Origin: Eledone cirrhosa
Taxonomy: Eukaryota
Reading direction: 5' to 3'
Assembly (NCBI GenBank): GCA_964016885.1
Contig: OZ024742.1
Coordinates: 346,084,001-346,148,000, forward strand
Length of the DNA stretch: 64,000 nt
The translations under genes and the position numbers were made by a program. Positions 15,546 through 63,744 of the stretch are shown here, piece after piece. Every line of letters starts with the position of its first letter. The first letter of the stretch is position 1. Below the pieces are notes generated by a model, which ran no database searches, was not told where the DNA came from, and saw only the letters and a list, made by a program, of their open reading frames with translations.

Positions 15546-15596
<51 letters not shown>

Positions 15597-21698: not shown

Positions 21699-21732
21699 GT
21701 GGTCTTTCCCATCTTTTCCACTCCTTTTCAAC

Positions 21733-24433: not shown

Positions 24434-24754
24434 AATATATATTATTATCATTTGATAATGCTTAAAAATGCTGAAACTGGTAATAGACAATTATTAAATA
24501 AATAAATAAATAAATAAATGCCATTGTTAATTAATAAATAAATCAACTAATACCTTAACACTTCACACAAAGTAAAATATTTCGTTTTAATCATTTTCTA
24601 ACCCAGAAAAAAAGAGAGAAATAAATAAAAAGGGAAAAAATTATTTTTTTCTTCCTTCCTAATAATCGTCTTTTTCTCCCTGTTTTCATATATATATATA
24701 TCCTAACATGTGTGCTTCCTCTCCACATTTTATTATTATTATTATTATTATTAT

Positions 24755-29770: not shown

Positions 29771-29980
29771 GGCGACCTACGTAGTAAATCGTATCATCGT
29801 GAGCTCCGCAAAGGTTTGTTATTTCCGTTTGTTAAAAATTGCCATTTATGGAAAATTTTTATTGTTAACTATATATAAGCGCACATACATTGTTTTCCGA
29901 AAAGGACACCCAAAAAGATTGGGGCCTTTTGCCCAAAATTTAAACTTTTATGATTATCAAAAAATTTCTTTGAAAAAAAA

Positions 29981-31942: not shown

Positions 31943-31976
31943 GTGGTCTTTCCCATCTTTTCCACTCCTTTTCAAC

Positions 31977-34900: not shown

Positions 34901-35132
34901 TTATCTGTCTGGTGGCCATGGCGAAAGAGATAGTATGGTGGACACGTTTGAAAAGGCTGAAGACGAGCACTTACCTCTTCGGTGATGCCCTGATTAACCT
35001 TTTCAAATTTGATTTGAAAAGGAAAATCAGGGTAGAGAGGGAAGTGCTCTCTTCCCAGCATTTTTTGAAAGATGGGTGAGAGAAGCAAGTATGGCCCGAA
35101 TGAATGGGCCTACTCTGAGTATGTGTCTGTAA
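31977..35132 (+). pseudogene. Tx1-like ORF2 copy 2 (APE with ~243-bp deletion, RT, zf-RVT)
   Basis: 759-aa RT-containing frame 32800-35079 with YADD; deletion junction TACGC|GACTGG at ~32152. Confidence 0.92.
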
Positions 35133-38713: not shown

Positions 38714-38774
<61 letters not shown>

Positions 38775-38789
38775 CATACACACACGCAT

Positions 38790-39285
38790 CTAATTTACCC
38801 GTATGTTCTATTTTAGCATGTTGGTAGATTACAGATGATTCTTTACTATCTTGAAGGTCTCGCTAGTGTTCATTTATCCGTTCCCCTACACTACGAGCTG
38901 TCTCACCTATGTACACTATATTTTTGTCTCTACATTGTCCTTCAGTACATCTTATGCTATATACTACATTTCTAGTTTTACAGTTAATATGGGGGCTTAA
39001 TTTACAGGTTATACATTTCTTATCTATACAGGGGGGTCTTTGAAAAGGGTATGTCTTGCTAATAAGTGTTTTTATGGAGGTACCTGGTCTTTCTACTATC
39101 TTAATATTGAGTTTATGTTTATCTAGGGCCCTTCTAAATTTGTAAGCTAATTCACCTCTAGGGGTTGTATCGATGAACATTACACTCTGGTATTTATTGC
39201 TATCATACCATGAGTTTATTCTATTAGCCTTATTCCTAGTTCTTTCTATTCTATTCCAAATATTCAACCCTATAACTTCAACAGG
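38790..39285 (-). pseudogene. Penelope-like GIY-YIG endonuclease remnant
   Basis: SVMFIDTTPRGEL, IKIVERPG, C..C..C, NCKTRNVVYSIRC..VYIGETARSVGERINEH. Confidence 0.88.
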
Positions 39286-40500: not shown

Positions 40501-40694
40501 TGAAATGTAAAGTATATATAGTTTTACTGTGAAAAAATAGGCAAAATTGTTTTATCCCAGTTTTTATTTGTCTGTGAGGGGAAATCCTAGGATTAGCACT
40601 CCCTCTAACTCTCCTTCCAACGAGACTTCAGCTAATTCTTCCACTTTCCAGAAACCCCCTCTAACTCTCCTCCTTCCACCGAGACCCCCTCTAA

Positions 40695-42452
40695 CTCACC
40701 CCAAGCAACAAGACTCAGCCCTACCTCCTCCCTTCCAACCTCACCCCCTCTAACTCCCCGCAACCAACAAAACTCAGCCCTACCTCCTCCCTTCCAACGT
40801 GACCCTCTCTAACTCCCCCCAACCAACAACACTCAGCCCTACCTCCTCCCTTCCAACCTCACCCATTCTAACTCCCCCCAACCAGCAACACTCAGCCCTA
40901 CCTCCTCCCTTCCAACGTGACCCCCTCTAACTCCCCCAACCAACAACACTCAGCCCTACCTCCTCCCTTCCAACGTGACCCCCTCTAACTCCCCCCAACC
41001 AACAACACTCAGCCCTACCTCCTCCCTTCCAACGTGACCCTCTATAACTCCCCCCAACCAACAACACTCAGCCCTACCTCCTCCCTTCCAACCTCACCCA
41101 TTCTAACTCCCCCCAACCAACAACACTCAGCCCTACCTCCTCCCTTCCAAAGTGACCCCCTCTAACACCGCCAACCAACAACACTCAGCCCTACCTCCTC
41201 CCTTCCAACCCCACCCATTCTAACTCCCCCCAACCAACAACACTCAGCCCTACCTCCTCCCTTCCAACCTCACCCATTCTAACTCCCCTCAACCAACAAC
41301 ACTCAGCCCTATCTCCTCCCTTCCAACGTGACCCCCTCTAACTCCCCCCAACCAACAACACTCAGCCCTACCTCCTCCCTTCCAACCTCACCCATTCTAA
41401 CTCCCCCCAACCAACAACACTCAGCCCTACCTCCTCCCTTCAAACGTGACCCCCTCTAACTCCCCCCAACCAACAACACTCAGCCCTACCTCCTCCTTTC
41501 CAACGTGACCCCCTCTAACTCCCCGCAACCAACAAAACTCAGCCCTACCTCCTCCCTTCCAACGTGACCCTCTCTAACTCCCCCCAACCAACAACACTCA
41601 GCCCTACCTCCTCCCTTCCAACCTCACCCATTCTAACTCCCCCCAACCAGCAACACTCAGCCCTACCTCCTCCCTTCCAACGTGACCCCCTCTAACTCCC
41701 CCAACCAACAACACTCAGCCCTACCTCCTCCCTTCCAACGTGACCCCCTCTAACTCCCCCCAACCAACAACACTCAGCCCTACCTCCTCCCTTCCAACGT
41801 GACCCTCTATAACTCCCCCCAACCAACAACACTCAGCCCTACCTCCTCCCTTCCAACCTCACCCATTCTAACTCCCCCCAACCAACAACACTCAGCCCTA
41901 CCACCTCCCTTCCAAAGTGACCCCCTCTAACACCGCCAACCAACAACACTCAGCCCTACCTCCTCCCTTCCAACCCCACCCATTCTAACTCCCCCCAACC
42001 AACAACACTCAGCCCTACCTCCTCCCTTCCAACCTCACCCATTCTAACTCCCCTCAACCAACAACACTCAGCCCTATCTCCTCCCTTCCAACGTGACCCC
42101 CTCTAACTCCCCCCAACCAACAACACTCAGCCCTACCTCCTCCCTTCCAACCTCACCCATTCTAACTCCCCCCAACCAACAACACTCAGCCCTACCTCCT
42201 CCCTTCAAACGTGACCCCCTCTAACTCCCCCCAACCAACAACACTCAGCCCTACCTCCTCCCTTCCAACGTGACCCTCTATAACTCCCCCCAACCAACAA
42301 CACTCAGCCCTACCTCCTCCCTTCCAACCTCACCCATTCTAACTCCCCCCAACCAACAACACTCAGCCCTACCTCCTCCCTTCCAACGTGACCCCCTCTA
42401 ACTCCCCCAACCAACAACACTTAGCCCTACCTCCTCCCTTCCAACGTGACTC
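40695..42452. repeat. ~59-bp C-rich minisatellite (~30 units) with a 765-bp higher-order duplication
   Basis: CCAACCAACAACACTCAGCCCTACCTCCTCCCTTCCAACGTGACCCCCTCTAACTCCCC; rare variants at 40756/41521 and 41164/41929. Confidence 0.95.
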
Positions 42453-42809
42453 AATCTTACTGTCTCTCTTTCTTATGATTACCTCTACCAAAGTTCCCAC
42501 TAACTTTCCCCATCCCCATCCGCTTTGACCAAAAATATTTTACATTGAAAGCTGCAGTGAGGCAACAGTTTGAAGTGTGCCTTACCAACACAGTTACAGG
42601 CAACAATTCAAGGTAACTGAGTAGCAACATTTTGATAAATGTGGCACCAACACAATTACAGGAAACATTTCAAAGTAACTGAGTAGCAACTTTTAGTAAA
42701 TGTGACATCAAAGCAACTGAGTAGCAACTTTTTGGTGCAAACAGCATCAATAAAGACAACATGTCAAAGATACCGAGCAGCAACATTTTGATGCGTTCAG
42801 CACCAACAC

Positions 42810-45800
42810 ATCGATTGTGTAGCACCAACACACCAACTATGTAGTACCAACACACCAACTGTTTAGTACCAACACAACAACTGTGTAGTACCAATACACC
42901 AACTGTTTAGTACCAACACACCAACTGTGTAGTACCAACACACCAACTGTTTAGTACCAACACACAACTGTGTAGTACCAACACACCAACTATGTAGTAC
43001 GAACACACCAACTGTTTAGTACCAACACAACAACTGTGTAGTACCAATACACCAGCTGTGTATCACCAACACACCAACTGTGTAGTACCAACACACTAAC
43101 TGTGTAGTACCAACACACCAACTGTGTAGTACCAATACACCAGCTGTGTATCACCAACACACCAACTGTGTAGTACCAACACACTAACTGTGTAGTACCA
43201 ACACACCAACTGTGTAGTACCAACACACCAACTGTGTATCACCAACACACCAACTGTGTAGTACCAATACACCAGCTGTGTATCACCAACACACCAAATA
43301 TGTAGTACCAATACACTAACTGTGTAGTACCAACACACCAACTGTGTAGTACCAACACACCAACTGTGTAGCAGCAACACACCAACTGTTTAGTACCAAC
43401 TGTGTATAACCAACACACCAACTGTGTAGTACAAACTGTGTAGCACCAACACACAAACTGTGTAGTACCAACACACCAACTGTGTAGTACCAACTGTGTA
43501 GAACCAATGCACCAACTGTGTAGTACCAACGCACCAACTGTTTAGTACCAATACACCAACTGTATAGTACCAACACACCAATTGTGTAGTACCAACACAC
43601 GAACTGTGTAGTACCAACAAACCAGCTCTGTAGTACCAACACACCAACTGTTTAGTACTAATGACCAGCTGTATAGTACCAACACACCAACTGTGTAGTA
43701 CCAAGAGACGAACTGTGTATCACCAACACACCAACTGTTTAGTACCAACACACCAGCTGTGTAGTACCAACACACCAATTGTCTAGTACCAACACACCAA
43801 CTGTGTAGTATCAACACACCAACTGTGTAGTACCAACGTACCAACTGTGTAGTACCAACACACCAGCTGTGTAGTACCAACACACCAATTGTGTAGCGCC
43901 AACACACCAACTGTTTAGTACCAACTGTATAGTACCAACACACCAACTGTGTAGCACCAACACACCAACTGTCTAGAACCAATACACCAGCTGTGTAGTA
44001 CCCATACACCACCTGTGTAGTACCAACACACCAACTGTGTAGTACCAACACACAAACTGTGTAGTACCATCACACCATCTGTGTAGTACCAACACACCAA
44101 CTGTGTAGTACCAACACACCAACTGTGTAGGACCAACACACCAACTGTGTAGCACCAACACACCAACTGTTTACTACCAATACACCAGCTGTGTAGTACC
44201 ACCACACCAGCTGTGTAGTACCAACATATCAACTGTGTAGAACCAACACCAACTGTTTAGTACCAACACATCAACTGTGTAGTACCATCACACCAACTGT
44301 GAAGTACCAACACACCAACTGTGTAGTACCAACACACCAACTGTGTAGAACCAACACACCAACTGTGTAACACCAACTGTGTAGTACCTACTGTGTAGAA
44401 CCAACGCACCAACTGTGTAATACCAACACACCAACAGTTTAGTACTAATACACGAGCTGTATAATACCAACACACCAACTGTTTAGTACCAACACACCAG
44501 CTGTGTAGTACCAACACAACAGCTGTATAGTACCAATACACCAACTGTGTAGTTCCAACACACCAACTGTGTAGTACCAACACACCAACTGTCTAGTACC
44601 AACACACCAACTGTCTAGTATAAACACACGAATTGTGTAGTACCAACACACTAACTGTCTAGTACCAACACATCAACTGTATAGTACCAACACACCAACT
44701 GTGTAGCACCAACACACCAACTGTTTAGAACCAACACACCAGCTGTGTAGTACCGACACACAACCTGTGTAGTACCAACACACCAACTGTGTAGTACCAA
44801 CACACTAACTGTTTAGTACCAACACACCAACTGTGTAGTACCAACACACCAGCTGCGTAGTACCAACACACCAACTGTGTAGCACCAACACACCAACTGT
44901 TTCGTACCACTGTGTAGTACCAACACACCAGCTGTGTAGTACCAACACACCAACTGTGTAGCACCAACACACCAACTGTTTAGTACCAACTGTATAGTAC
45001 CAACACACCAACTGTGTAGTACCAACACACCAACTGTTTAGAACCAATACACCAGCTGTGTAGTACCGACAGACCAGCTGTGTAGTACCAACACACCAAC
45101 TGTGTAGTACCAACACACCAAATGTTTAGTACCAACACACCAACTGTGTAGTACCATCACACCATCTGTGTAGTACCAACACACCAAATGTGTAGTACCA
45201 ACACACCAACTGTGTAGTACCAACACACCAACTCTGTAGTACCAACACACCAACTGTGTAGCACCAAAACACCAACTGTTTAGTACCAATACACCAGCTG
45301 TGTAGTACCAACACATCAACTGTGTAGAACCAACATATCAACTGTGTAGTACCGACACACCAACTGTTTAGTACCAACACATCAACTGTGTAGTACCATC
45401 ACACCATCTGTGTAGTACCAACACACCAACTGTGAAGTACCAACACACCAACTGTGTAGTACCAACACACCAACTGTGTAGCACCAACACACCAACTGTT
45501 TGGTACCAACACACCAACTTTGTTGTACCAACACAGCAACTGTTTAGTACCAACACACCAACTGTGTAGTACCAACACACCAACTATGTAGTACCAACAC
45601 ACAAATTGTTTAGTACCAGCACACCAACTGTGTAGTACCAATACACCAACTGTATAGTACCAACTCACCAATTGTGTATCACCAACACACCAACTGTGTA
45701 GTACCAACACACCAACTGTGTAGTACCAACACACTAACTGTGTAGTACCAACACACCAACTGTGTAGTACCAACACACCAACTGTGTATCACCAACACAC

Positions 45801-48800
45801 CAACTGTGTAGTACCAATACACCAGCTGTGTATCACCAACACACCAAATATGTAGTACCAATACACTAACTGTGTAGTACCAACACACCAACTGTGTAGT
45901 ACCAACACACCAACTGTGTAGCAGCAACACACCAACTGTTTAGTACTAACTGTGTATAACCAACACACCAACTGTGTAGTACAAACTGTGTAGCACCAAC
46001 ACACAAACTGTGTAGTACCAACACACCAACTGTGTAGTACCAACTGTGTAGAACCAATGCACCAACTGTATAGTACCAACACACCAACTGTTTAGTACCA
46101 ATACACCAGCTGTATAGTACCAACACACCAATTGTGTAGTACCAACACACGAACTGTGTAGTACCAACACACCAGCTCTGTAGTACCAACACACCAACTG
46201 TTTAGTACTAATGACCAGCTGTATAGTACCAACACACCAACTGTGTAGTACCAAGAGACGAACTGTGTATCACCAACACACCAACTGTTTAGTACCAACA
46301 CACCAGCTGTGTAGTACCAACACACCAACTGTCTAGTACCAACACACCAACTGTGTAGTATCAACATACCAACTGTGTAGTACCAACGTACCAACTGTGT
46401 AGTACCAACACACCAGCTGCGTAGTACCAACACACCAATTGTGTAGCGCCAACACACCAACTGTTTAGTACCAACTGTATAGCACCAACACACCAACTGT
46501 CTAGAACCAATACACCAGCTGTGTAGTACCAACACACCACCTGTGTAGTACCAACACACCAACTGTGTAGTACCAACACACCAACTGTGTAGTACCATCA
46601 CACCATCTGTGTAGTACCAACACACCAACTGTGTAGTACCAACACACCAACTGTGTAGCACCAACACACCAACTGTTTACTACCAATACACCAGCTGTGT
46701 AGTACCACCACACCAGCTGTGTAGTACCAACATATCAACTGTGTAGAACCAACACACCAACTGTTTAGTACCAACACATCAACTGTGTAGTACCATCACA
46801 ACATCTGTGTAGTACCAACACACCAACTGTGAAGTACCAACACACCAACTGTGTAGTACCAACACACCAACTGTGTAGAACCAACACACCAACTGTGTAA
46901 CAACCAACTGTGTAGTACCTACTGTGTAGAACCAACGCACCAACTGTGTAGTACCAACACACCAACAGTTTAGTACTAATACACCAGCTGTATAATACCA
47001 ACACACCAACTGTTTAGTACCAACACACCAGCTGTGTAGTACCAACACAACAACTGTGTAGTACCAATACACCAACTGTGTAGTTCCAACACACCAACTG
47101 TGTAGTACCAACACACCAACTGTCTAGTATAAACACACGAATTGTGTAGTACCAACACACTAACTGTCTAGTACCAACACATCAACTGTATAGTACCAAC
47201 ACACCAACTGTGTAGCACCAACACACCAACTGTTTAGTACCAACACATCAACTGTGTAGTACCATCACACCATCTGTGTAGTACCAACACACCAACTGTG
47301 AAGTACCAACACACCAACTGTGTAGTACCAACACACCAACTGTGTAGAACCAACACACCAACTGTGTAACACCAACTGTGTAGTACCTACTGTGTAGAAC
47401 CAACGCACCAACTGTGTAGTACCAACACACCAAAAGTTTAGTACTAATACACCAGCTGTATAATACCAACACACCAACTGTTTAGTACCAACACACCAAC
47501 TGTGTAGTACCAACACACAAACTGTGTAGTACCATCACACCATCTGTGTAGTACCAACACACCAACTGTGTAGTACCAACACACCAACTGTGTAGGACCA
47601 ACACACCAACTGTGTAGCACCAACACACCAACTGTTTACTACCAATACACCAGCTGTGTAGTACCACCACACCAGCTGTGTAGTACCAACATATCAACTG
47701 TGTAGAACCAACACCAACTGTTTAGTACCAACACATCAACTGTGTAGTACCATCACACCAACTGTGAAGTACCAACACACCAACTGTGTAGTACCAACAC
47801 ACCAACTGTGTAGAACCAACACACCAACTGTGTAACACCAACTGTGTAGTACCTACTGTGTAGAACCAACGCACCAACTGTGTAATACCAACACACCAAC
47901 AGTTTAGTACTAATACACGAGCTGTATAATACCAACACACCAACTGTTTAGTACCAACACACCAGCTGTGTAGTACCAACACAACAGCTGTATAGTACCA
48001 ATACACCAACTGTGTAGTTCCAACACACCAACTGTGTAGTACCAACACACCAACTGTCTAGTACCAACACACCAACTGTCTAGTATAAACACACGAATTG
48101 TGTAGTACCAACACACTAACTGTCTAGTACCAACACATCAACTGTATAGTACCAACACACCAACTGTGTAGCACCAACACACCAACTGTTTAGAACCAAC
48201 ACACCAGCTGTGTAGTACCGACACACAACCTGTGTAGTACCAACACACCAACTGTGTAGTACCAACACACTAACTGTTTAGTACCAACACACCAACTGTG
48301 TAGTACCAACACACCAGCTGCGTAGTACCAACACACCAACTGTGTAGCACCAACACACCAACTGTTTCGTACCACTGTGTAGTACCAACACACCAGCTGT
48401 GTAGTACCAACACACCAACTGTGTAGCACCAACACACCAACTGTTTAGTACCAACTGTATAGTACCAACACACCAACTGTGTAGTACCAACACACCAACT
48501 GTTTAGAACCAATACACCAGCTGTGTAGTACCGACAGACCAGCTGTGTAGTACCAACACACCAACTGTGTAGTACCAACACACCAAATGTTTAGTACCAA
48601 CACACCAACTGTGTAGTACCATCACACCATCTGTGTAGTACCAACACACCAAATGTGTAGTACCAACACACCAACTGTGTAGTACCAACACACCAACTCT
48701 GTAGTACCAACACACCAACTGTGTAGCACCAAAACACCAACTGTTTAGTACCAATACACCAGCTGTGTAGTACCAACACATCAACTGTGTAGAACCAACA

Positions 48801-51800
48801 TATCAACTGTGTAGTACCGACACACCAACTGTTTAGTACCAACACATCAACTGTGTAGTACCATCACACCATCTGTGTAGTACCAACACACCAACTGTGA
48901 AGTACCAACACACCAACTGTGTAGTACCAACACACCAACTGTGTAGCACCAACACACCAACTGTTTGGTACCAACACACCAACTTTGTTGTACCAACACA
49001 GCAACTGTTTAGTACCAACACACCAACTGTGTAGTACCAACACACCAACTATGTAGTACCAACACACAAATTGTTTAGTACCAGCACACCAACTGTGTAG
49101 TACCAATACACCAACTGTATAGTACCAACTCACCAATTGTGTATCACCAACACACCAACTGTGTAGTACCAACACACCAACTGTGTAGTACCAACACACT
49201 AACTGTGTAGTACCAACACACCAACTGTGTAGTACCAACACACCAACTGTGTATCACCAACACACCAACTGTGTAGTACCAATACACCAGCTGTGTATCA
49301 CCAACACACCAAATATGTAGTACCAATACACTAACTGTGTAGTACCAACACACCAACTGTGTAGTACCAACACACCAACTGTGTAGCAGCAACACACCAA
49401 CTGTTTAGTACTAACTGTGTATAACCAACACACCAACTGTGTAGTACAAACTGTGTAGCACCAACACACAAACTGTGTAGTACCAACACACCAACTGTGT
49501 AGTACCAACTGTGTAGAACCAATGCACCAACTGTATAGTACCAACACACCAACTGTTTAGTACCAATACACCAGCTGTATAGTACCAACACACCAATTGT
49601 GTAGTACCAACACACGAACTGTGTAGTACCAACACACCAGCTCTGTAGTACCAACACACCAACTGTTTAGTACTAATGACCAGCTGTATAGTACCAACAC
49701 ACCAACTGTGTAGTACCAAGAGACGAACTGTGTATCACCAACACACCAACTGTTTAGTACCAACACACCAGCTGTGTAGTACCAACACACCAACTGTCTA
49801 GTACCAACACACCAACTGTGTAGTATCAACATACCAACTGTGTAGTACCAACGTACCAACTGTGTAGTACCAACACACCAGCTGCGTAGTACCAACACAC
49901 CAATTGTGTAGCGCCAACACACCAACTGTTTAGTACCAACTGTATAGCACCAACACACCAACTGTCTAGAACCAATACACCAGCTGTGTAGTACCAACAC
50001 ACCACCTGTGTAGTACCAACACACCAACTGTGTAGTACCAACACACCAACTGTGTAGTACCATCACACCATCTGTGTAGTACCAACACACCAACTGTGTA
50101 GTACCAACACACCAACTGTGTAGCACCAACACACCAACTGTTTACTACCAATACACCAGCTGTGTAGTACCACCACACCAGCTGTGTAGTACCAACATAT
50201 CAACTGTGTAGAACCAACACACCAACTGTTTAGTACCAACACATCAACTGTGTAGTACCATCACAACATCTGTGTAGTACCAACACACCAACTGTGAAGT
50301 ACCAACACACCAACTGTGTAGTACCAACACACCAACTGTGTAGAACCAACACACCAACTGTGTAACAACCAACTGTGTAGTACCTACTGTGTAGAACCAA
50401 CGCACCAACTGTGTAGTACCAACACACCAACAGTTTAGTACTAATACACCAGCTGTATAATACCAACACACCAACTGTTTAGTACCAACACACCAGCTGT
50501 GTAGTACCAACACAACAACTGTGTAGTACCAATACACCAACTGTGTAGTTCCAACACACCAACTGTGTAGTACCAACACACCAACTGTCTAGTATAAACA
50601 CACGAATTGTGTAGTACCAACACACTAACTGTCTAGTACCAACACATCAACTGTATAGTACCAACACACCAACTGTGTAGCACCAACACACCAACTGTTT
50701 AGTACCAACACATCAACTGTGTAGTACCATCACACCATCTGTGTAGTACCAACACACCAACTGTGAAGTACCAACACACCAACTGTGTAGTACCAACACA
50801 CCAACTGTGTAGAACCAACACACCAACTGTGTAACACCAACTGTGTAGTACCTACTGTGTAGAACCAACGCACCAACTGTGTAGTACCAACACACCAAAA
50901 GTTTAGTACTAATACACCAGCTGTATAATACCAACACACCAACTGTTTAGTACCAACACACCAGCTGTGTAGTACCAACACAACAACTGTGTAGTACCAA
51001 TACACCAACTGTGTAGTTCCAACACACCAACTGTGTAGTACCAACACACCAACTGTCTAGTATAAACACACGAATTGTGTAGTACCAACACACTAACTGT
51101 CTAGTACCAACACATCAACTGTATAGTACCAACACACCAACTGTGTAGCCCCAACACACCAACTGTTTAGAACCAACACACCAGCTGTGTAGTACCGACA
51201 CACAAGCTGTGTAGTACCAACACACCAACTGTGTAGTACCAACACACTAACTGTTTAGTACCAACACACCAACTGTGTAGTACCAACACACCAGCTGCGT
51301 AGTACCAACACACCAACTGTTTCGTACCACTGTGTAGTACCAACACACCAGCTGTGTAGTACCAACACACCAACTGTTTCGTACCACTGTGTAGTACCAA
51401 CACACCAACTGTGTAGCACCAACACACCAACTGTTTCGTACCACTGTGTAGTACCAACACACCAGCTGTGTAGTACCAACACACCAACTGTGTAGCACCA
51501 ACACACCAACTGTTTAGTACCAACTGTATAGTACCAACACACCAACTGTCTAGTACCAACACACCAACTGTTTAGAACCAATACACCAGCTGTGTAGTAC
51601 CGACAGACCAGCTGTGTAGTACCAACACACCAACTGTGTAGTACCAACACACCAAATGTTTAGTACCAACACACCAACTGTGTAGTACCATCACACCATC
51701 TGTGTAGTACCAACACACCAAATGTGTAGTACCAACACACCAACTGTGTAGTACCAACACACCAACTCTGTAGTACCAACACACCAACTGTGTAGCACCA

Positions 51801-54800
51801 ACACACCAACTGTTTAGTACCAATACACCAGCTGTGTAGTACCAACACATCAACTGTGTAGAACCAACATATCAACTGTGTAGTACCGACACACCAACTG
51901 TTTAGTACCAACACATCCACTGTGTAGTACCATCACACCATCTGTGTAGTACCAACACACCAACTGTGAAGTACCAACACACCAGCTGTGTAGTACCAAC
52001 ATACCAACTGTGTAGCACCAACACACCAACTGTTTGGTACCAACACACCAACTGTGTTGTACCAACACAGCAACTGTTTAGTACCAACACACCAACTGTG
52101 TAGTACCAACACACCAACTGTGTAGTACCAACACACCAATTGTTTAGTACCAGCACACCAATTGTGAAGTACCAATACACCAACTGTATAGTACCAACTC
52201 ACCAATTGTGTATCACCAACACACCAACTGTGTAGTACCAACACACCAACTGTGTAGTACCAACACACCAACTGTTTAGTACCAACACACCAACTGTGTA
52301 GTAGCAATACACCAACTGTGTAGTACCAACACACCAATTGTGTATCACCAACACACCAACTGTGTAGTACCAATACACCAGCTGTGTATCACCAACACAC
52401 CAACTGTGTAGTACTAACGCACTAACTGTGTAGTACCAACACACCAACTGTGTAGTACAAACACACCAACTGTGTATCACCAACACACCAACTGTGTAGT
52501 ACCAATGCACCAGCTGTGTATCACCAATACACCAACACTGTAGTACCAATACACTAACTGTGTAGTACCAACACACCAACTGTGTACTACCAACACACCA
52601 GCTGCGTAGTACCAACACACCAACTGTGTATCACCAACACACCAACTGTTTTGTACCAATACACCAGATGTGTAGAACCAACACACCAGCTGTGTAGTAC
52701 CAACACACCAACTGTGTAGTACCAACACACCAACAGTTTAGTACCAACACACCAACTGTGTAGTACCATCACACCAGCTGTGTAGTTCCAACACACCAAC
52801 TGTGTAGTACCAACACACGATCTGTGTAATACCAACACACCAACTATGTAGTACCAACTGTGTAGTACCAACACACCAACTGTATAGTACCAACACACCA
52901 ACTGTTTAGTACCAACACACCATCTGTGTAGTACCAACACACCAACAGTGTAGTACTAACACACCAACAGTGTAGTATCAACACACCAACTGTGTATTAC
53001 CAACGCACCGACTGTGTAGTACCAACACACCATCTGTGTAGTACCAACACACCAGCTGTGTAGTACCAACACACCAACTGTGTAGTACCAACACACGAAT
53101 TGTGTATCACCAATACACCAGCTGTGTAGTACCAACACACCAGCTGTGTAGTACCAACACACCAACTGTGTAGTACCAACACACCAGCTGTGTAGTACCA
53201 ACACACCAACTGTGTAGCACCAAAACACCAACTGTTTACTACCAACTGTGTAGCACCAACACACCAACAGTTTAGTACCAACTGTGTAGCACCAACACCA
53301 ACTGTTAGTACCAATACACCAACTGTGTAGTACCACCACACCAGCTGTGTAGTACCAACATACCAACTGTGTAGTACCATCACGCCAATGTTTAGTATCA
53401 ACACACCAACTGTGAGCACCAACACACCAACTGTGTAGTACCAACGCACCAAGTGTGTAGTACCAACACACCAACTGTTTAGTACCAACACACCAACTGT
53501 GTAGTACCAATACACCAACTGTGTAGTACCAACTCACCAATTGTGTATCAACAACACACCAACTGTGTAGTACCAACACACCAACTGTGTAGTACCAACA
53601 CACCAACTGTATAGTACTGACACACCAACTGTGTAATACCAATACACCAAATGTGTAGTACCAACACACCAGTTGTGTATCACCAACACACGAACTGTGT
53701 AGTCCAAATATACCAGCTGTGTATCACCAACACACCAACTGTGTAGTACCAACACAATAACTGTGTAGTACCAACACACCAACTGTGTAGTACCAACACA
53801 CCAACTGTGTATCACCAACACACCAGCTGTGTAGTACCAATATACCAGCTGTGTATCACCAACACACCAAATCTGTAGTACCAATACACTAACTGTGTAG
53901 TACCAATACACCAACAGTGTAGCACCAACACACCAACTGTTTAGTACCAACTGTGTAGTACCAACTGTGTAGCACCAACACACGAACTGTGTAGTACCAA
54001 CACACCAACTGTGTAGTACCAACTGTATAGAACCAACTCACCAACTGTGTAGTACCAACACACCAACAGTTTAGTACTAATACACCAGCTGTATAATACC
54101 AACACACCAATTGTGTAGTACCAACACACGAACTGTGTATCACCAACACACCAACTGTTTAGTACCAACACACCAGCTGTGTAGTACCAACACACCAACG
54201 GTGTTGTACCAACACATCAACTGTGTAGTTCCAACATACCAACTGTGTAGAACCAACACACCAACTGTGTAGTATCAACACACCAACTGTGTAGTACCAA
54301 CACATCAACTGTATAGTACCAGCACACAAACTGTGTAGCGCCAACACACCAACTGTTTAGAACCAAATCACCAGCTGTGTAGTACCAACACACGAGCTGT
54401 GTAGTATCAACACACCAACTGTGTAGTACCAACACACCAACTGTTTAGTACCAACACACCAAATGTGTAGTACCAACACACCAACTGTGTAGTACCAACA
54501 CACCAGCTGCGTAGTACCAACAGACGAACTGTGTATCACCAACACACCAACTGTTTAGTACCAACACACCAACTGTTTAGTACCAACACAACAACTGTGT
54601 AGTACCAACGCACCAAGTGTGTAGTACCAACACACCAACTGTTTAGTACCAACACACCAACTGTGTAGTACCAACACACCAACTGTGTATCACCAACACA
54701 CCAACTCTGTAATACCAATACACTAATTCTGTAGTACCAACACACCAACTGTGTAGTACCAACACACCAACTGTGTAGCACCAACACACCAACTGTGTAG

Positions 54801-57172
54801 CACCAACACACCAACTTTTTAGTACCAACTGTGTAGTACCAACTGTGTAGCACCAACAAACCAACTGTGTTGTACCAACACACCAACTGTGTAGTATCAG
54901 CACGCCAATTGTGTAGTACCAACACAGCAACTGTATAGTACCAACACACCAACTGTGTAGTACCAACACACCCACTGTTTCGTACCAACACACCAACAGT
55001 GTAGTACCAACACACCAGCTGCGTAGTACAAACACACCAACTGTGTAGCACCAACACACCAACTGTTTAGAACCAATATACCAGCTGTGTAGTACCAACA
55101 AACGATCTGTGTAGTACCAACACACCAACTGTGTAGTACCAACACACCAACTGTTTAGTACCAATACACCAGCTGTGTAGTACCAACACACAAGCTGTGT
55201 AGTACCAACACACCAACTGTGTAGTACCAACACACCAACTGTTTAGTACCAACACACCAACTGTGTAGTACCATCACACCAGCTGTGTAGTACCAACACA
55301 CCAACTGTGTATTACCAACACACCAACTGTGTAGTACCAACACACCAACTGTGTAGTACCAACACACCAACTGTGTAGCACCTACACACCAACTGTTTCG
55401 TACCAACACACCAACTGTGTAGAACCAACGCACCAACTGTGTAGTACCAACACACCAACTCTTTTGTACAAACACAACAACTGTGTAGTACCAACACACC
55501 AACTGTGTAGTACCAACACACCAACTGTGTAGTACTAATACACCAACTGTGTAGTACCAATACACCAACTCTGTAGTACCAACACACCAACTGTGTAGTA
55601 CCAATACACCAGTTATGTAGTACCAACACACCAACTGTTTAGTACCAACACACCAACTGTGTAGTACCAACACACCAACTGTTTAATACCTACACAACAA
55701 CTGTGTAGTACCAACACACCAACTGTATAGTACCAACACACCAACTGTGTCGTACAAACCCACCAACTGTGTAGTACCAATACACCAGCTGTGTAGTACC
55801 AACACACCAACTGTGTAGTACTAATACACCAACTTTGTAGTACCAATACACCAACTGTGTAGTACCAACAAACCAACTGTTTCGTACCAACACACCAACT
55901 GTGTAGTACCAACACACCAGCTGCGTAGTACCAACACACCAACTGTGTAGCACCAACACACCAACTGTTTAGTACCAACTGTGTAGCACCAACACACCAA
56001 CTGTTTAGTACCAATACACCAGCTGTGTAGTACCAACACACCAACTGTGTAGCACCAACACACCCACTGTTTCGTACCACTGTGTAGTACCAACACACCA
56101 GCTGTGTAGTACCAACACACCAACTGTGTAGCACCAACAAACCAACTGTTTAGAACCAATACACCAGCTGTGTAGTACCGACACACCAGCTGTGTAGTAC
56201 CAACACACCAACTATTTAGTACCAACACACCAACTGTTTAGTACCATCACACCATCTGTGTAGTACCAACACACCAACTGTGTAGTACCAACAGACCAAC
56301 TGTGTAGTACCAACACACCAACTGTTTAGTACCAACACACCAACTGTGTAGGACCAACACACCAACTGTATAGTACCAACACACCAACTGTGTAGTATCA
56401 ATACACCAACTGTGTAGTACTAATACACTAACTGTGTAGTACCAACACACCAACTGTGTAGTACCAACACACCAACTGTGTAGCACCAACAGACCAACTG
56501 TGTAGTACCAACACACCAACTGTTTAGTACCAACACACCAACTGTGTAGAACCAACACACCAACTGTATACTACCAACACACCAACTGTGTAGTACCAAC
56601 ACACCAACTGTATAGTACCAACACACCAACTGTGTAGTACTAATACACTAACTGTGTAGTACCAACACACCAACTGTGTAGTACCAACACACTAACTGTG
56701 TAGTACCAACACACCTAACTGTGTAGTACCAATACACCAACTGCGTAGTACCAATACACCAACTGTGTAGTACCAACACACCAACTGTGTAGTACCAACC
56801 CACCAACTGTGTAGTACCAATACACCAACTGTGTAGTACCAACACACCAACTGTATAGTACCAACACACCAACTGTGTAGTACTAATACACTAACTGTGC
56901 ATTACCAACACACCAACTGTGTAGTACCAACACACTAACTGTGTAGTACCAACACACCAACTGTGTAGTACCAATACACCAACTGTGTAGTACCAACACA
57001 CCAACTGTATAGTACCAACACACTAACTGTGTAGTACCAACACACCAACTGTGTAGTACCAATACACCAACTGTGTAGTACCAATACACCAACTGTGTAG
57101 TACCAATACACCAACTGTGTAGCACCAACACACCAACTGTGTAGTACCAATACACCAGCTGTGTATCACCAA
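42810..57172. repeat. 22-bp satellite (GTAGTACCAACACACCAACTGT)n, ~14.4 kb
   Basis: Continuous 22-mer with occasional 14-bp deletion units. Confidence 0.98.
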
Positions 57173-57179
57173 TACGCCG

Positions 57180-59408
57180 GGTGTGTATCCGTGTATATGT
57201 GTATCTGTGTATCTGTGTATCCGTATATCCGTGTATCCGTGTATTCGTGTATCCGTGTATCTGTGTATCCCTGTATCCGTGTATCTCTGTATCCGTGTAT
57301 CCCTGTATCCGTGTATTCGTGTATCCGTGTATATGTGTATCCGTGTATCCGTGTATCTCTGTATCTGTGTATCTGTGTATCTGTGTATCCGTGTATCCGT
57401 GTATTCGTGTATCTGTGTATCTGTGTATCCGTGTATTCGTGTATCTGTGTATCTGTGTATCCGTGTATCCGTGTATCTGTGTATCCGTGTATCTGTGTAT
57501 CTGTGTATCCGTGTATCTGTGTATCCGTGTATCTGTGTATCTGTGTATCCGTGTATCTGTGTATCTGTGTATCCATGTATCCGTGTATCCGTGTATCCGT
57601 GTATTCGTGTATTCGTGTATATGTGTATCCGTGTATCCGTGTATCTCTGTATCTGTGTATCTGTGTATCCGTGTATCCGTGTATCCGTGTATATGTGTAT
57701 CTGTGTATCCGTGTATTCGTGTATCTGTGTATCTGTGTAACCGTGTATCCGTGTATCTGTGTATCCGGGTATCTGTGTATTTGTGTATCCGTGTATCTGT
57801 GTATCCGTGTATCTGTGTATCTGTGTATCCGTGTATCTGTGTATCTGTGTATCGGTGTATCTGTGTATCCGTGTATCTGTGTATCTGTGTATCCGTGTAT
57901 CTGTGTATCCGTGTATCCGTGTATCCGTGTATCTGTGTATCTGTGTATCCGTGTATCCGTGTATCCGTGTATCTGTGTATCCGTGTATCTGTGTATCCGT
58001 GTATCTGTGTATCCGTGTATCTGTGTATCCGTGTATCCGTGTATCCGTGTATCTGTGTATCCGTGTATCTGTGTATCTGTGTATCCGTGTAGTGTATCTG
58101 TGTATCCGTGTATCCGTGTATCCGTGTATCCGTGTATCCGTGTATCCGTGTATCCGTGTATCCGTGTATCTGTGTATCCGTGTATCCGTGTATCTGTGTA
58201 TCCGTGTATCTGTGTATCTGTGTATCCGTGTATCTGTGTATCCGTGTATCCGTGTATCCGTGTATCTGTGTATCCGTGTATCCGTGTATCCGTGTATCCG
58301 TGTATCCGTGTATCCGTGTATCTGTGTATCCGTGTATCCGTGTATCCGTGTATCCGTGTATCCGTGTATCTGTGTATCCGTGTATTTTTGTATCCGTGTA
58401 TTCGTGAATCCGTGTATCCGTGTATCTTTGTATCCGTGTATCCGTGTATCCGTGTATCTGTGTATCTGTGTATCTGTGTATCTGTGTATCCGTGTATCTG
58501 TGTGTATCCGTGTATCCGTGTATCTGTGTATCTGTGTATCTGTGTATCCGTGTATCTGTGTGTATCCGTGTATCCGTGTATCCGTGTATCCGTGTATCTG
58601 TGTAACCGTGTATTTTTGTATCCGTGTATTCGTGAATCCGTGTATCCGTGTATCTTTGTATCCGTGTATCCGTGTATCCGTGTATCTGTGTATCTGTGTA
58701 TCTGTGTATCTGTGTATCCGTGTATCTGTGTGTATTCGTGTATCCGTGTATCTGTGTATCTGTGTATCTGTGTATCTGTGTATCCGTGTATCTGTGTGTA
58801 TCCGTGTATCCGTGTATCTGTGTATCTGTGTATCTGTGTATCCGTGTATCTGTGTGTATCCGTGTATCCGTGTATCTGTGTATCTGTGTATCTGTGTATC
58901 TTTGTATCCGTGTATCCATGTATCTGTGTATCCGTGTAGCCGTGTATCCGTGTATCTGTGTATCCGTGTATCTGATTATCCGTGTATCTGTGTATCCGTG
59001 TATCTGTGTATCCGTGTATCCGTGTCTCCGTGTATCTGTGTATCCGTGTATTTTTGTATCCGTGTATTCGTGAATCCGTGTATCCGTGTATCTTTGTATC
59101 CGTGTATCTGTGTATCCGTGTCTCCGTGTCTCCGTGTATCTGTGTATCTGTGTATCTGTGTATCTGTGTATATGCGTATCCGTGTATCCGTGTATCCGTG
59201 TATCTCTGTATCCGTGTATCTGTGTATCTGTGTATCCGTGTATCCGTGTCTCCGTGTATCTGTGTATCTGTGTATCCGTGTATCTGTGTATCCGTGTATC
59301 CTTGTTTCTGTGTATCTGTGTATCCGTGTATCCGTGTTTCTGTGTATCTGTGTATCCGTGTATCCGTGTATCCGTGTATCTGTGTATCCGTGTATCCGTG
59401 TATCCGTG
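57180..59408. repeat. 8-bp satellite (GTGTATC[C/T])n
   Basis: Continuous octamer repeat; long YTDT/RVSVY ORFs are artefacts. Confidence 0.97.
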
Positions 59409-60472: not shown

Positions 60473-60567
<95 letters not shown>

Positions 60568-60913
60568 AATTGAAACAAAATGAAAACGAAATTTCATTTC
60601 TCACTCTTAGTATGGCACTTACTTAAATGTAAGTATGCATGTTTACAAACGAACAAAGCGACGTTATAATAAGCGCCGCTAAACTGATACGTGCATATAT
60701 GTATGTGTACCTGTATGCATATGTATGTATATATGTATATATATATATATATATGTGCATGCTACTGTACGTCTGTATACATATATGTATGTACGCATAC
60801 ATGCATACTTACATTTAAGTAAGTGCCATACTAAGAGTGAGAAATGAAATTTCGTTTTCATTTTGTTTCAATTTATCGTTTTCGGTATGCTTGACCGATT
60901 TAACTCACTCAAT

Positions 60914-60962
60914 ATGCAAATTAGGCTGCTCAGCCGTTAATTTTCATAAGGAAAGTATATAC
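60914..60962 (+). promoter_or_regulatory. Octamer ATGCAAAT + TAATTTTCATA + TATA-like block (repeated at 61390 and 63283)
   Basis: Conserved between families A and B; promoter function is inferred only. Confidence 0.45.
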
Positions 60963-60994
60963 TTTCGAACGTTCAACTATCTGGCAGATGGGTA

Positions 60995-61039
60995 AACGGT
61001 GCTGATGATAGCTAACAAGCTTGAAACTAGTACATCGTT
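60995..61039 (+). ncRNA. Type-I hammerhead ribozyme (family A, unit 1)
   Basis: AACGGTG CTGATGA t AGCT aaca AGCT t GAAA CTAG TA CATCGTT; palindromic ACTAGT stem III; GUA site. Confidence 0.87.
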
Positions 61040-61470
61040 CCTGTGTCAGTGTTGAACAAAAAGGTGACGTGGTTGCCTTAACACCGTATGGCATAAATTC
61101 AGGCTGTTCAGTTTGTTTACAAACGAACAAAGCGACGTTATATTAAGCGCCGCTAAACTGATACGTGCATATATGTATGTGTACCTGTATGCATATGTAT
61201 GTATATATGTATATATATATATATATATATGTGCATGCTACTGTACGTCTGTATACATATATGTATGTACGTATACATGCATACTTACATTTAAGTAAGT
61301 GCCATACTAAGAGTGAGAAATGAAATTTCGTTTTCATTTTGTTTCAATTTATCGTTTTCGGTATGCCTGACCGATTTAACTCACTCAATATGCAAATTAG
61401 GCTGCTCAGCCGTTAATTTTCATAAGGAAAGTATATACTTTCGAACGTTCAACTATCTGGCAGATGGGTA

Positions 61471-61515
61471 AACGGTGCTGATGATAGCTAACAAGCTTGA
61501 AACTAGTACATCGTT
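61471..61515 (+). ncRNA. Type-I hammerhead ribozyme (family A, unit 2)
   Basis: Identical to 60995-61039, 476 bp downstream. Confidence 0.87.
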
Positions 61516-61750
61516 CCTGTGTCAGTGTTGAACAAAAAGGTGACGTGGTTGCCTTAACACCGTATGGCATAAATTCAGGCTGTTCAGTTTGTTTACAAAC
61601 GAACAAAGCGACGTTATAATAAGCACCGCTAAACTGATACGTGCATATATGTATGTGTACCTGTATGTATATATGTATATATATATATATATGTGCATGC
61701 TACTGTACGTCTGTATACATATATGTATGTACGTATACATGCATACTTAC

Positions 61751-61828
<78 letters not shown>

Positions 61829-61833
<5 letters not shown>

Positions 61834-61943
61834 AACGAGTAGGACCCCGACGGCTGAGCTCAAGCCGTTTCAACAGCTAATTCAGTCCAGAATTAGCCGT
61901 CGAAACGGCTTGAGCTCAGCCGTCGGGGTCCTACTCGTTCCTA
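61829..61943. repeat. ~115-bp near-perfect palindrome
   Basis: ATAGGAACGAGTAGGACCCCGACGGCTGAGCTCAAGCCGTTTC mirrored around GCTAATTC-agtcca-GAATTAGC. Confidence 0.92.
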
Positions 61944-62024
61944 TTACCCACTCTACTACCCTAAGTATTGAGTACTTTGGAGCGTTGTGGTCCACCTGGT
62001 TCCTTACCACATTCCTTCGTTATA

Positions 62025-62055
<31 letters not shown>

Positions 62056-62103
62056 TAGTTTTGCGAGGTTTTTTATATGAAATCGTGTGTCGAAACAGAT
62101 ATT

Positions 62104-62739
62104 GTTATATTTGGGGAGGGTCATATTTGCGTAATATTGCCAGAATTAATAACAGAACACACTCACTGTTTGGTTGGTTTTCGCTTCTCGCTGTCTTTTA
62201 TATATATATATCTGCGATCTAACTTACTCGGTCCTCAATGTTGCCATTGACTGACCGGCGGTCAAAAATAATACAGATACAATATAGACACAAACACATA
62301 TATATATAGTTTACATAATTTACATAAATCTTTCGTTGCACATCTGCAACATCGTCAGTGGTGTTATATTCATTGTTCCTCCTGTTGTGTTGTATGTCTA
62401 CGCCATTCAGTCTGTCTATAGACAGACTGAACAAAAAAAATGGCGTAGACATACAACACAACAGGAGGAACAATGAATATAACACCACTGACGATGTTGC
62501 AGATGTGCAACGAAAGATTTATGTAAATTATGTAAACTATATATATATGTGTTTGTCTATATTGTATCTGTATTATTTTTGACCGCCGGTCAGTCAATGG
62601 CAACATTGAGGACCGAGTAAGTTAGATCGCAGATATATATATATAAAAGACAGCGAGAAGCGAAAACCAACCAAACAGTGAGTGTGTTCTGTTATTAATT
62701 CTGGCAATATTACGCAAATATGACCCTCCCCAAATATAA

Positions 62740-62740
<1 letters not shown>
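62104..62740. repeat. ~640-bp inverted repeat (~300-bp arms) with a central 24-bp palindrome
   Basis: 62104-62406 mirrors 62440-62740; spacer TCAGTCTGTCTATAGACAGACTGA + A-run. Confidence 0.92.
62481..62553 (+). ncRNA. Hammerhead-like motif (mirror copy at 62293-62365, minus strand)
   Basis: AACACCA CTGACGA t GTTGCA gatg TGCAAC GAAA; imperfect stem III; (AT) run between the UH site and the GTGTT stem-I strand. Confidence 0.6.
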
Positions 62741-62816
<76 letters not shown>

Positions 62817-62819
<3 letters not shown>

Positions 62820-63712
62820 CAATTAAGTTAAAAATGTACATCCATATATGTATACTGAAATACTAGTATGCATATGAATACACACACGTATACATATGTA
62901 GATGTACCAAGTCTTTCACTGGTTACTTTACTGTGAGTATCCAGCTATGCTGTATGTAAACACACAGACAAACCGGTTTTTAGAGTCATACTGGTTTTTG
63001 AGGAAACACCTTTCCTCTATTCTCCAGAAAGCCAGACAAGGAATTTTGAACTAGTTTCGTTGTTGTATGTAAACCAGTGAAAGACTTGGTACATCTACAT
63101 ATGTATACGTGTGTGTATTCATATGCATACTAGTATTTCAGTATACATATATGGATGTACATATTTAACTTAATTGTTTAAGCGTCAGTCATACAAAAGT
63201 GAGTTACAAACGAAACGAAATTTAATTTCGTTTCGTTATTTGTTTTTATCGTCTCCGTTGAACCGGTACGTACTCACACTCTATGCAAATTAGTCTGCCC
63301 ACTACTAATTTTCATAGAAAAAGCATATAACGATATGTGCTTTTACGATTCTCCAGAAAGGCCGGTAGATAGGTAAATATTGCTGATGAGTTGTAACAAC
63401 AACGAAACTAGTTCAATATTCCTTGTCTGGCTTTCTGGAGAATAGAGGAAAGGTGTTTCCTCAAAAGCCAGTATGACTCTAAAAACCGGTTTGTCTGTGT
63501 GTTTACATACAGAATAGCTGGATACTCACAGTAAAGTAACCAGTGAAAGACTTGGTACATCTACATATGTATACGTGTGTGTATTCATATGCATACTAGT
63601 ATTTCAGTATACATATATGGATGTACATTTTTAACTTAATTGTTTAAGCGTCAGTCATACAAAAGTGAGTTACAAACGAAACGAAATTTAATTTCGTTTC
63701 GTTATTTGTTTT

Positions 63713-63713
<1 letters not shown>
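62817..63713 (+). mobile_element. HHR-containing non-coding element, family B: 466-bp unit x1.4 with a 5' inverted partial copy
   Basis: AACCAGTGAAAGAC at 63072 and 63538; 62817-63066 is the reverse complement of ~63396-63645; flanked by (AT)n. Confidence 0.85.
63376..63420 (+). ncRNA. Type-I hammerhead ribozyme (family B)
   Basis: AATATTG CTGATGA GTTGT aaca ACAAC GAAA CTAG TT CAATATT; perfect stems I and II; palindromic ACTAGT. Confidence 0.9.

Positions 63714-63744
<31 letters not shown>

What the first reader, a model, noticed from the sequence alone, without database searches (positions are those of the whole stretch)
60565..63713. Two diverged ~470-bp non-coding units, each carrying a covarying hammerhead ribozyme: candidate retrozyme-like family
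Seen: family A (units 474/476 bp) and family B (466 bp) differ in sequence but share one architecture. Both have the CTGATGA/GAAA core, loop II AACA and stem III ACTAGT. Stem I covaries (AACGGTG/CATCGTT vs AATATTG/CAATATT), as does stem II (AGCT/AGCT vs GTTGT/ACAAC). Stem I extends past a GG-TA-AA/TTCC bulge into a long hairpin (GTTCAAC..CTGGCA/TGTCAG..GTTGAAC vs ATTCTCCAGAAAG/CTTTCTGGAGAAT), followed by a small hairpin in both. Neither has a credible ORF. Known: tandem type-I HHR repeats in metazoans (non-LTR retrozymes, newt satellite 2, Schistosoma SM-alpha) self-cleave to monomeric, sometimes circular, RNAs, and palindromic stem III permits dimeric cleavage. Inference: a non-autonomous ribozyme-processed retroelement family; I do not know whether it has been described in cephalopods.
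Basis: partly seen in the sequence, partly recalled or inferred. Interest (0 to 1): 0.9.

Follow-up and report, generated by a model that had tools for sequence, protein, structure and literature searches.

The report
Penelope-pasted hammerhead retrozyme, two subfamilies
These two repeats are diverged versions of one very abundant non-coding mobile element of a probable octopus; each unit carries a motif predicted to cut its own RNA, and the ends and A-to-G changes of sister copies suggest that a Penelope-type transposon enzyme likely copies a small, probably circular RNA into the genome, a known kind of element whose way of spreading has been proposed but not shown.

Summary
Observation confirmed: three type I hammerheads, with predicted cleavage after 61032, 61508 and 63413, and covarying stems. 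A (474/476 bp) and B (466 bp) are not separate inventions; they align end to end. The genome holds 23,699 exact cores of this pattern (control 2).

Copies are head-to-head, tandem arrays in (TA)n with two fixed outer ends about 60-70 nt apart. One long and one short end occur in 30 of 30 two-armed insertions. This is the Penelope-like element (PLE) 'tail', also seen in autonomous PLEs of this genome.

No PLE ORF adjoins any of 188 hammerhead contexts, and five PLE 3' regions tested show no similarity, so these are not pseudo-LTR debris. A real pseudo-LTR remnant sits between A and B. Variants fixed across whole insertions are enriched for sense-strand A>G, and one 9-kb two-armed array has 18 of 18 identical monomers. 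This fits repeated copying of an edited RNA circle but does not prove it.

Verdict: new member of a known kind (animal non-LTR retrozyme). Cleavage, expression, circles and the helper are unshown. This scan has noted the same kind of element many times, in this genome too.

The parts
60565..60646 (-). Inverted arm of the A insertion (unit positions 239-320, counted from the cleavage site); outer 'long' end at 60565 against (TA)n
60640..61755 (+). Tandem arm of A: unit 82-476, 1-476, 1-261; outer 'short' end at 61755 against (TA)n; the two arms overlap by 7 nt at the junction
60913..60948 (+). Hairpin holding an ATGCAAAT octamer and an inverted ATGAAAAT, conserved between A and B (second copy 61389-61424); hot spot of A>G changes in B copies
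   Evidence: sequence
60971..61057 (+). Hammerhead A1 with extended stem I; core 61002-61008, stem II 61009-61022 (U-U base, loop AACA), palindromic ACTAGT, predicted cleavage after GUA at 61032
61447..61533 (+). Hammerhead A2, identical core; predicted cleavage after 61508
61832..62021 (.). Unrelated short two-armed insert in the same (TA)n nest; its right arm recurs in 40 fetched loci, some overlapping; not part of A or B
62024..62745 (.). Two-armed pseudo-LTR remnant of an autonomous PLE (PLE-2, locus L206; 93-97% identical) with its own minimal hammerhead-like core; internal control for what pseudo-LTR debris looks like
62818..63066 (-). Inverted arm of the B insertion (unit 449-466 and 1-231); outer 'short' end at 62818
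63072..63715 (+). Tandem arm of B: unit 125-466, 1-302; outer 'long' end at about 63713-63715; octamer hairpin 63282-63316
63348..63443 (+). Hammerhead B with extended stem I; core 63383-63389, stem II GTTGT/ACAAC, predicted cleavage after GUU at 63413

Best explanation
A and B are two subfamilies of one non-coding, hammerhead-bearing repeat whose insertions carry Penelope-like (PLE) ends; it is likely transcribed, predicted to cut itself to about 470-nt monomers that probably circularise, and likely copied back into (TA)n by the enzyme of an autonomous PLE. SHOWN: hammerhead motif and covariation; end-to-end homology; thousands of near-identical copies; head-to-head tandem arrays; two fixed outer ends far from the cleavage site; (TA)n targets with short duplications; no adjoining ORF; young intact PLEs in the genome with the same two-end spacing. 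INFERRED: (1) Tandem units are transcribed; the octamer hairpin may be part of a promoter. (2) Adjacent hammerheads pair their palindromic stem III and cleave as dimers. (3) Monomers are ligated to circles, and some are A-to-I edited. (4) The PLE GIY-YIG nicks both target strands with a short stagger. Each 3' end primes reverse transcription at one of two internal sites (about 260 and 320 in A, about 233 and 302 in B). Both cDNAs run through the cleavage junction for up to tens of rounds and are joined head to head. (5) Older arrays are later also changed at the DNA level. The helper PLE is not identified; the young PLE-4 and PLE-1 are candidates.
For: Pattern count 23,699 vs control 2; B-type cores 9,276 vs 0. 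Covariation on 20 hand-picked subfamily rows: 89% of cells paired, 48 double-sided changes, 0/500 shuffles as high, slid controls 35-48%. One long plus one short end in 30 of 30 two-armed insertions whose two ends were recognised. In a young B subfamily, 23 of 25 further two-armed insertions follow the rule, 2 have one atypical end and none has two alike (read). Both ends lie at homologous positions in A and B. Autonomous PLE-1 ends at 164/224 and PLE-4 at 127/188, a spacing of about 60 nt, matching the two RT start sites and 'tail' of PMC11167929. Target duplications of about 7-11 nt including microhomology are readable at irregular targets (L011, L054, L056, L065). Arms cross the cleavage junction seamlessly. 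One insertion holds 31 units between PLE ends; another has 18 of 18 identical monomers over both arms. Insertion-fixed variants in B are A>G in 9 of 15 cases vs 12 of 125 single-unit variants (p=2e-5). In the young subfamily they are 25 of 43 vs 10 of 59, or 9 of 23 counted by distinct site (p=0.04); different A>G sets are fixed in all units of both arms, e.g. L319 and L324.
Against: No cleavage, transcript or circle was observed. The three-edit haplotype of the 18-monomer array is not private: it occurs at 7 places (69 matches), so that array could descend from an already homogeneous source. Only 34 insertions of its 487-match subfamily were examined, so 'private' variants may be lineage marks. 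Family A shows no clear A>G excess (3 of 14 fixed vs 13 of 153 single). The 31-unit array has 19 monomer types with a recurring pattern, pointing to DNA-level amplification or a mixed template. In vitro, a PLE used uncleaved RNA and needed no hammerhead activity (PMC11167929). Eight of nine Xenopus retrozyme dimers did not cleave in vitro (bioRxiv 10.64898/2026.07.22.740005). No helper with shared sequence was found. Covariation rows are related, so the shuffle number is not a probability.
Confidence: 0.72

Rival explanations
1. Same non-autonomous PLE passenger, but the template is a linear, largely uncleaved multimeric transcript. Long arrays come from long source arrays and unequal crossing-over, and circles play no part in transposition.
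For: PMC11167929: hammerhead mutants did not affect insertion and unprocessed RNA was the main substrate. Mixed or alternating unit types occur in L329, arrB2 (L125-L126) and the 31-unit array. The three-edit haplotype is shared by 7 loci.
Against: It needs homogeneous edited source arrays, which must themselves arise somehow. Different A>G sets are fixed in all units of both arms with no single-unit variants (L319). Strong covariation of the hammerhead and its extended stem I implies selection on the ribozyme.
Confidence: 0.2
2. The units are 5'-truncated pseudo-LTR remnants of an autonomous PLE that was not sampled.
For: All PLE footprints are present. Vertebrate retrozymes are related to PLE pseudo-LTRs (bioRxiv 10.64898/2026.07.22.740005). 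Only six PLE families were sampled, and the 3' region of PLE-5 could not be delimited.
Against: Of 188 distinct hammerhead contexts, 161 have the unit's own tail upstream, 22 an inversion, 5 a truncation into unrelated flank, and 0 a PLE ORF end. Five PLE 3' regions score 21-33 against A/B, within their shuffle ranges, while A vs B scores 139. True pseudo-LTR debris (62024-62745) is traceable to its ORF.
Confidence: 0.06
3. A DNA-level satellite or fold-back element in which the hammerhead is incidental.
For: Tandem arrays up to 14.6 kb and inverted ends; AT-rich palindromes fold well in any case.
Against: Dispersed young copies with fixed unequal ends, variable inner truncation points, strand-biased A>G and compensatory changes around an invariant catalytic core.
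Confidence: 0.02

Closest known systems
Metazoan non-LTR retrozymes (Cervera and de la Pena 2020, PMC7229834: coral, mussel 350-390 bp, axolotl Rtz331/Rtz353; parts 3-4 of 6 and passages read; supplement not readable)
   Same: Short, AT-rich (35% GC), non-coding tandem units, each with a type I hammerhead with a short palindromic helix III. A has the U-U base of helix II described for HHR_Amex2. Thousands of copies, coexisting with PLEs.
   Different: Units are longer (466-476 nt vs about 170-400). The main text does not mention octopus, cephalopod, microsatellite, inverted copies or target sites. PLE mobilisation and rolling-circle RT are proposed there; here they are read from insertion ends. 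Cleavage and circles are shown there and not here.
Animal retrozymes as non-autonomous PLE derivatives (Li, Clavereau and Pollet 2026, bioRxiv 10.64898/2026.07.22.740005; parts 1-3 of 5 read)
   Same: Argues that retrozymes derive from and depend on PLEs; unit range 51-972 bp covers these.
   Different: 35 genomes (vertebrates, insects, one anthozoan; no mollusc). Evidence is co-occurrence and pseudo-LTR similarity. Here no pseudo-LTR similarity was found, but insertion geometry matches PLEs.
EN+ Penelope-like elements (Craig et al. 2021, bioRxiv 10.1101/2021.04.23.441226, passages; Frangieh et al. 2024, PMC11167929, parts 1-2 of 4)
   Same: Partial tandems, inverted 5'-truncated copy, a 'tail' on one end only, microsatellite targets, two internal RT start sites, hammerhead upstream of the start sites.
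   Different: No ORF; the whole unit is circularly repeated; the tail is about 60-70 nt rather than 30-40; the hammerhead is of the extended type rather than minimal.
Newt satellite 2 (described in PMC7229834; its octamer/snRNA-type promoter is recalled, not confirmed by search)
   Same: Tandem hammerhead repeat active as a dimer; possibly an internal octamer.
   Different: About 330 bp, amphibian; no sequence comparison made.

Membership tests
Type I hammerhead ribozyme | CUGANGA and GAAA core, NUH triplet, three helices with open stem I | tested here: met
   GUA in A, GUU in B
Type I hammerhead ribozyme | Compensatory changes in helices I and II around an invariant core | tested here: met
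   (20 hand-picked rows including two other families of the genome; helix III pairs invariant, so uninformative)
Type I hammerhead ribozyme | Rfam model match at gathering score | tested here: not met
   none; HH9 38.6 bits (cut-off 52) at B, 18.5 at A
Type I hammerhead ribozyme | Self-cleavage | not testable with these tools
   needs in vitro transcription
Animal non-LTR retrozyme | Tandem short units, each with a type I hammerhead (at least two consecutive) | tested here: met
   A in the window; B has one here, but arrays of up to 31 elsewhere
Animal non-LTR retrozyme | No coding capacity, GC below 45%, no LTRs | tested here: met
Animal non-LTR retrozyme | Dispersed, high copy number | tested here: met
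Animal non-LTR retrozyme | Expressed as linear and circular monomers | tested here: inconclusive
   no RNA holder listed; indirect A>G signature only
PLE-mobilised sequence | Inverted truncated copy, tail at one end only, microsatellite target | tested here: met
PLE-mobilised sequence | Identified autonomous partner | tested here: inconclusive
   six families sampled, none sharing sequence
Pseudo-LTR of an autonomous PLE | Joined to an RT/GIY-YIG ORF in some copies | tested here: not met
   0 of 188 contexts; a sample, not a census
Pseudo-LTR of an autonomous PLE | Sequence similarity to a PLE 3' region | tested here: not met
   five regions at shuffle level

The most novel reading that the evidence does not exclude
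The insertions are a direct genomic record of a Penelope-type enzyme reverse-transcribing one small, sometimes A-to-I-edited RNA circle round and round from both ends of a DNA break, starting at two fixed sites. The passenger is recognised by shape rather than by sequence shared with its helper. This would turn the proposed rolling-circle retrotransposition of animal retrozymes into a defined, reconstitutable reaction, with young passengers and intact candidate enzymes (PLE-4, PLE-1) in the same genome.
Probability: 0.45. Interest if true: 0.75.

Novelty: new member of a known kind. Interest (0 to 1): 0.5.

Why it matters
How animal retrozymes get back into the genome, and what hammerheads do for Penelope-like elements, are open questions in the papers read. 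This family is young and abundant, and its ends specify exactly where reverse transcription would start. Intact candidate helper ORFs lie in the same genome, so an existing in vitro PLE assay could test circle versus linear template and identify the helper. At about 24,000 cores it is also a sizeable unannotated component of a probable octopus genome: a 2026 Octopus vulgaris repeat annotation (PMC13282606, passages) has no mention of hammerhead, ribozyme or retrozyme. The element class itself is not new.

Tried and rejected
Expression: no RNA holder listed; this is no evidence either way. Four runs of unknown kind were laid on B. One (X4) gave a single 496-nt contig, equal to 466+30 as a cyclic assembly would give, but tandem DNA gives the same shape, so it was not used.

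Uniqueness test of the three-edit haplotype: negative, 7 loci.

Helper search: PLE-1, PLE-2, PLE-3, PLE-4, PLE-5 and PLE-6. None shares sequence with A/B. One 15-nt antisense match between B 419-433 and the PLE-4 long end (E 0.15-0.27) was treated as chance. A local fold of the end regions showed no obvious shared structure with PLE-1 or PLE-4. PLE clade names were not tested by a tree; Pfam gave only a weak RVT_1 hit for PLE-1.

Other dead ends: a loose pattern with a downstream ATG was uninformative. The bacterial promoter scan does not apply. Rfam miRNA hits are TA-rich hairpin noise. An apparent haplotype switch in L129 may be a gap-placement artefact and was not used. L1-style twin priming on one linear RNA was considered; inner junction positions are scattered and both arms repeat the same sequence, so it was not favoured.

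Literature: searches listed no paper describing cephalopod retrozymes. The supplement of PMC7229834 and one file of PMC4209133 could not be read, and bioRxiv supplements are closed; they could list cephalopod motifs.

Full report
OBSERVATION. The region is a nest of insertions in (TA)n. A descriptor scan of both strands of the window found three type I hammerheads and no others at its thresholds: core at 61002, 61478 and 63383, predicted cleavage after 61032, 61508 (GUA) and 63413 (GUU). Dinucleotide shuffles gave 0.002 loose hits each and no strict hit in 500. Stem I is 7 bp and continues past a bulge into a long hairpin. Stem II has loop AACA and, in A, a U-U first pair. Stem III is the palindrome ACTAGT. 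Rfam finds nothing at gathering level, but Hammerhead_HH9 scores E=1.6e-7 at B. As circles, both monomers fold as multi-hairpin structures (z about -7.7 and -11.8 against 30 shuffles); they are 35% GC and lack credible ORFs.

ONE FAMILY, NOT TWO. Counted from the cleavage site, A (476 nt) and B (466 nt) align end to end (score 315 vs 119+/-12, maximum 159, in 200 block shuffles). They share the order of hairpins, an ATGCAAAT-containing hairpin and both insertion-end positions. On 20 hand-picked rows (A and B subfamilies plus two other hammerhead families met in the loci; rare decayed single copies mostly left out), 89% of cells pair. Eleven of 17 pairs show double-sided change, no shuffle reaches the covariation score, and slid controls fall to 35-48%. 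The rows are related, so this is support, not a probability.

ABUNDANCE. The genome is 3.0 Gb. The exact pattern CTGATGA-N10-18-GAAACTAGT occurs 23,699 times against 2 for the control, and B-type cores 9,276 times against 0. Many B copies are 99-100% identical to the window copy. The nearest named protein to a PLE of this genome is from Octopus vulgaris at 69%, so the host is probably an octopod; this is an inference.

INSERTION ANATOMY. In the window, A is an inverted cap (unit 239-320) joined head to head to 82-476, 1-476, 1-261. B is an inverted 449-466/1-231 joined to 125-466, 1-302. Sister copies repeat this. Outer ends cluster at 258-261 and 315-320 in A and at 228-233 and 302 in B, nearly always in (TA)n, while inner junctions are scattered. 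Among two-armed insertions whose two ends the anchors recognised, 30 of 30 (24 B, 6 A) have one long and one short end. In a further young B subfamily, 23 of 25 do, and 2 have one atypical end (read). Where the target is irregular, a duplication of about 7-11 nt including microhomology is readable (L011, L054, L056, L065). Craig et al. (passages) describe partial tandems, an inverted truncated copy, a one-sided tail and microsatellite bias as PLE features. Frangieh et al. show that the tail is the interval between two internal RT start sites and that the enzyme cuts and extends both strands. Autonomous PLEs of this genome behave alike: PLE-1 ends at 163-164 (37 hits) and 220-224 (35); PLE-4 ends at 127 (5) and 186-188 (20) (positions include some AT overshoot). 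The ends of A and B lie 230-320 nt downstream of the cleavage site and the arms run through that site without a seam. The template was therefore not a single linear cleaved monomer: it was a circle, an uncleaved multimer, or monomers joined by template jumps (inference).

NOT PSEUDO-LTR DEBRIS. Of 188 distinct A/B hammerhead contexts in the fetched loci, 161 have the unit's own sequence upstream, 22 an inversion, 5 a truncation into unrelated flank, and none a PLE ORF end. Six autonomous PLE families with a C-terminal GIY-YIG domain were sampled. The 3' regions of five of them score 21-33 against A/B, within shuffle range, versus 139 for A against B; PLE-5's region could not be delimited. The insert between A and B (62024-62745) is 93-97% identical to the pseudo-LTR of PLE-2, which shows what such debris looks like. 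PLE-4 is very young, with many intact 775-aa frames at 98-99% identity. Its hammerhead has the same U-U helix II base and a palindromic helix III, which makes it a candidate helper; no sequence link supports this.

TEMPLATE. I took the idea of looking for editing marks from earlier scan notes and tested it. In B, substitutions fixed in all covering copies of an insertion and absent from its five nearest neighbours are A>G on the ribozyme strand in 9 of 15 cases, against 12 of 125 single-copy changes (50 insertions analysed of 54; Fisher p=2e-5). A shows no clear excess (3 of 14 vs 13 of 153). One 9-kb insertion has 18 of 18 identical monomers over both arms, all with three A>G in the octamer. 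That haplotype, however, occurs at 7 places, so it is a lineage and not a private mark. In 34 insertions of its 487-match subfamily, fixed substitutions are A>G in 25 of 43 cases against 10 of 59 singles. By distinct site the figure is 9 of 23 (p=0.04), and 8 of those 9 sites are paired in the predicted fold. Different sets are fixed across both arms in different insertions (L319: three A>G in 6 of 6 units with no single-unit change; L324: two in 5 of 5). This fits repeated copying of one edited monomer. Against it: the sample is partial; L329 and the L125-L126 array carry alternating unit types; and a 31-unit array has 19 monomer types (mean 3.4 differences within, 14.9 to the window copy). 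Mixed templates or later DNA-level amplification therefore also contribute.

MECHANISM (committed, 0.72). Tandem copies are likely transcribed and cut by dimeric hammerheads, as described for short palindromic helix III in PMC4209133 (passages) and PMC7229834. Monomers are probably circularised and sometimes edited. A PLE protein likely nicks both strands of a (TA)n target and primes cDNA from each at one of two fixed internal sites; the two cDNAs run for up to many rounds and are joined head to head. Shown: motif, covariation, copy number, end geometry, absence of an adjoining ORF in the sample, A>G bias in B. Inferred: transcription, cleavage, circularisation, editing, helper identity. No RNA run was listed, which says nothing either way.

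COMPARISON AND NOVELTY. It works like, and meets every sequence-testable feature of, the animal non-LTR retrozymes (PMC7229834; bioRxiv 10.64898/2026.07.22.740005). Those papers propose PLE mobilisation and circle templates; in the parts I read, neither reads it from insertion ends or treats cephalopods. Six searches listed no paper on cephalopod retrozymes; unread supplements could bear on that. The scan's own notes record the same kind of element repeatedly, including 467-470-bp units in this genome that may be family B (unchecked). Verdict: new member of a known kind, with unusually readable evidence on an open mechanism; interest 0.5.

Noticed in passing
window 62024-62745: Two-armed pseudo-LTR remnant of autonomous PLE-2 (L206, 911-aa open frame, 66% to PLE-1 over RT-EN) with a minimal hammerhead-like core near 62486 and its inverted copy.
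   Followed up: yes
window 61832-62021: Short two-armed (TA)n insert with a near-perfect 110-nt palindrome and a one-sided tail; recurs in 40 fetched loci (some overlapping); parent element not identified.
   Followed up: partly
window 38760-39270 (-) and 13660-15551 (+): Fragments of two autonomous PLE families (PLE-1 C-terminus; PLE-3 C-terminus with a long 3' region in which no canonical hammerhead was found).
   Followed up: partly
L267, L268, L270: PLE-4: very young PLE in 4.2-kb tandems, with an upstream open frame and an intact 775-aa RT/GIY-YIG frame; CCAAT and TATA-like motifs precede its hammerhead. Good candidate for an active enzyme.
   Followed up: partly
L203:7509-7880, L082, L044, L262, L277, L198: Further hammerhead repeat families in this genome (310-nt and 332-nt spacings and others); two share the GG-bulge/UUCC stem I extension with A and B.
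   Followed up: partly
window 60913-60948, 61389-61424, 63282-63316: Octamer ATGCAAAT plus inverted ATGAAAAT conserved in A and B as a hairpin; possible POU-type promoter element (newt satellite 2 parallel recalled, not confirmed). A B lineage that lost the octamer by A>G still has arrays at 7 loci.
   Followed up: partly
L329 (G000:C3:103652000-103657500): Units alternate between two A>G patterns, as a dimeric template would give.
   Followed up: partly
window 24896-28546 (-), 19604-24505 and 29954-35079 (+): A LINE-type element with an intact 1216-aa frame inserted between two copies of an L1/Tx1-like element (labels by eye).
   Followed up: no
window 1-10066, 40667-42450, 42802-57172, 57183-59408: Large satellite arrays of 13, 59, 22 and 8 bp.
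   Followed up: no
run X4 on window 63114-63609: Single 496-nt contig (466+30) of a B variant in a run of another, coded organism of unknown kind.
   Followed up: partly
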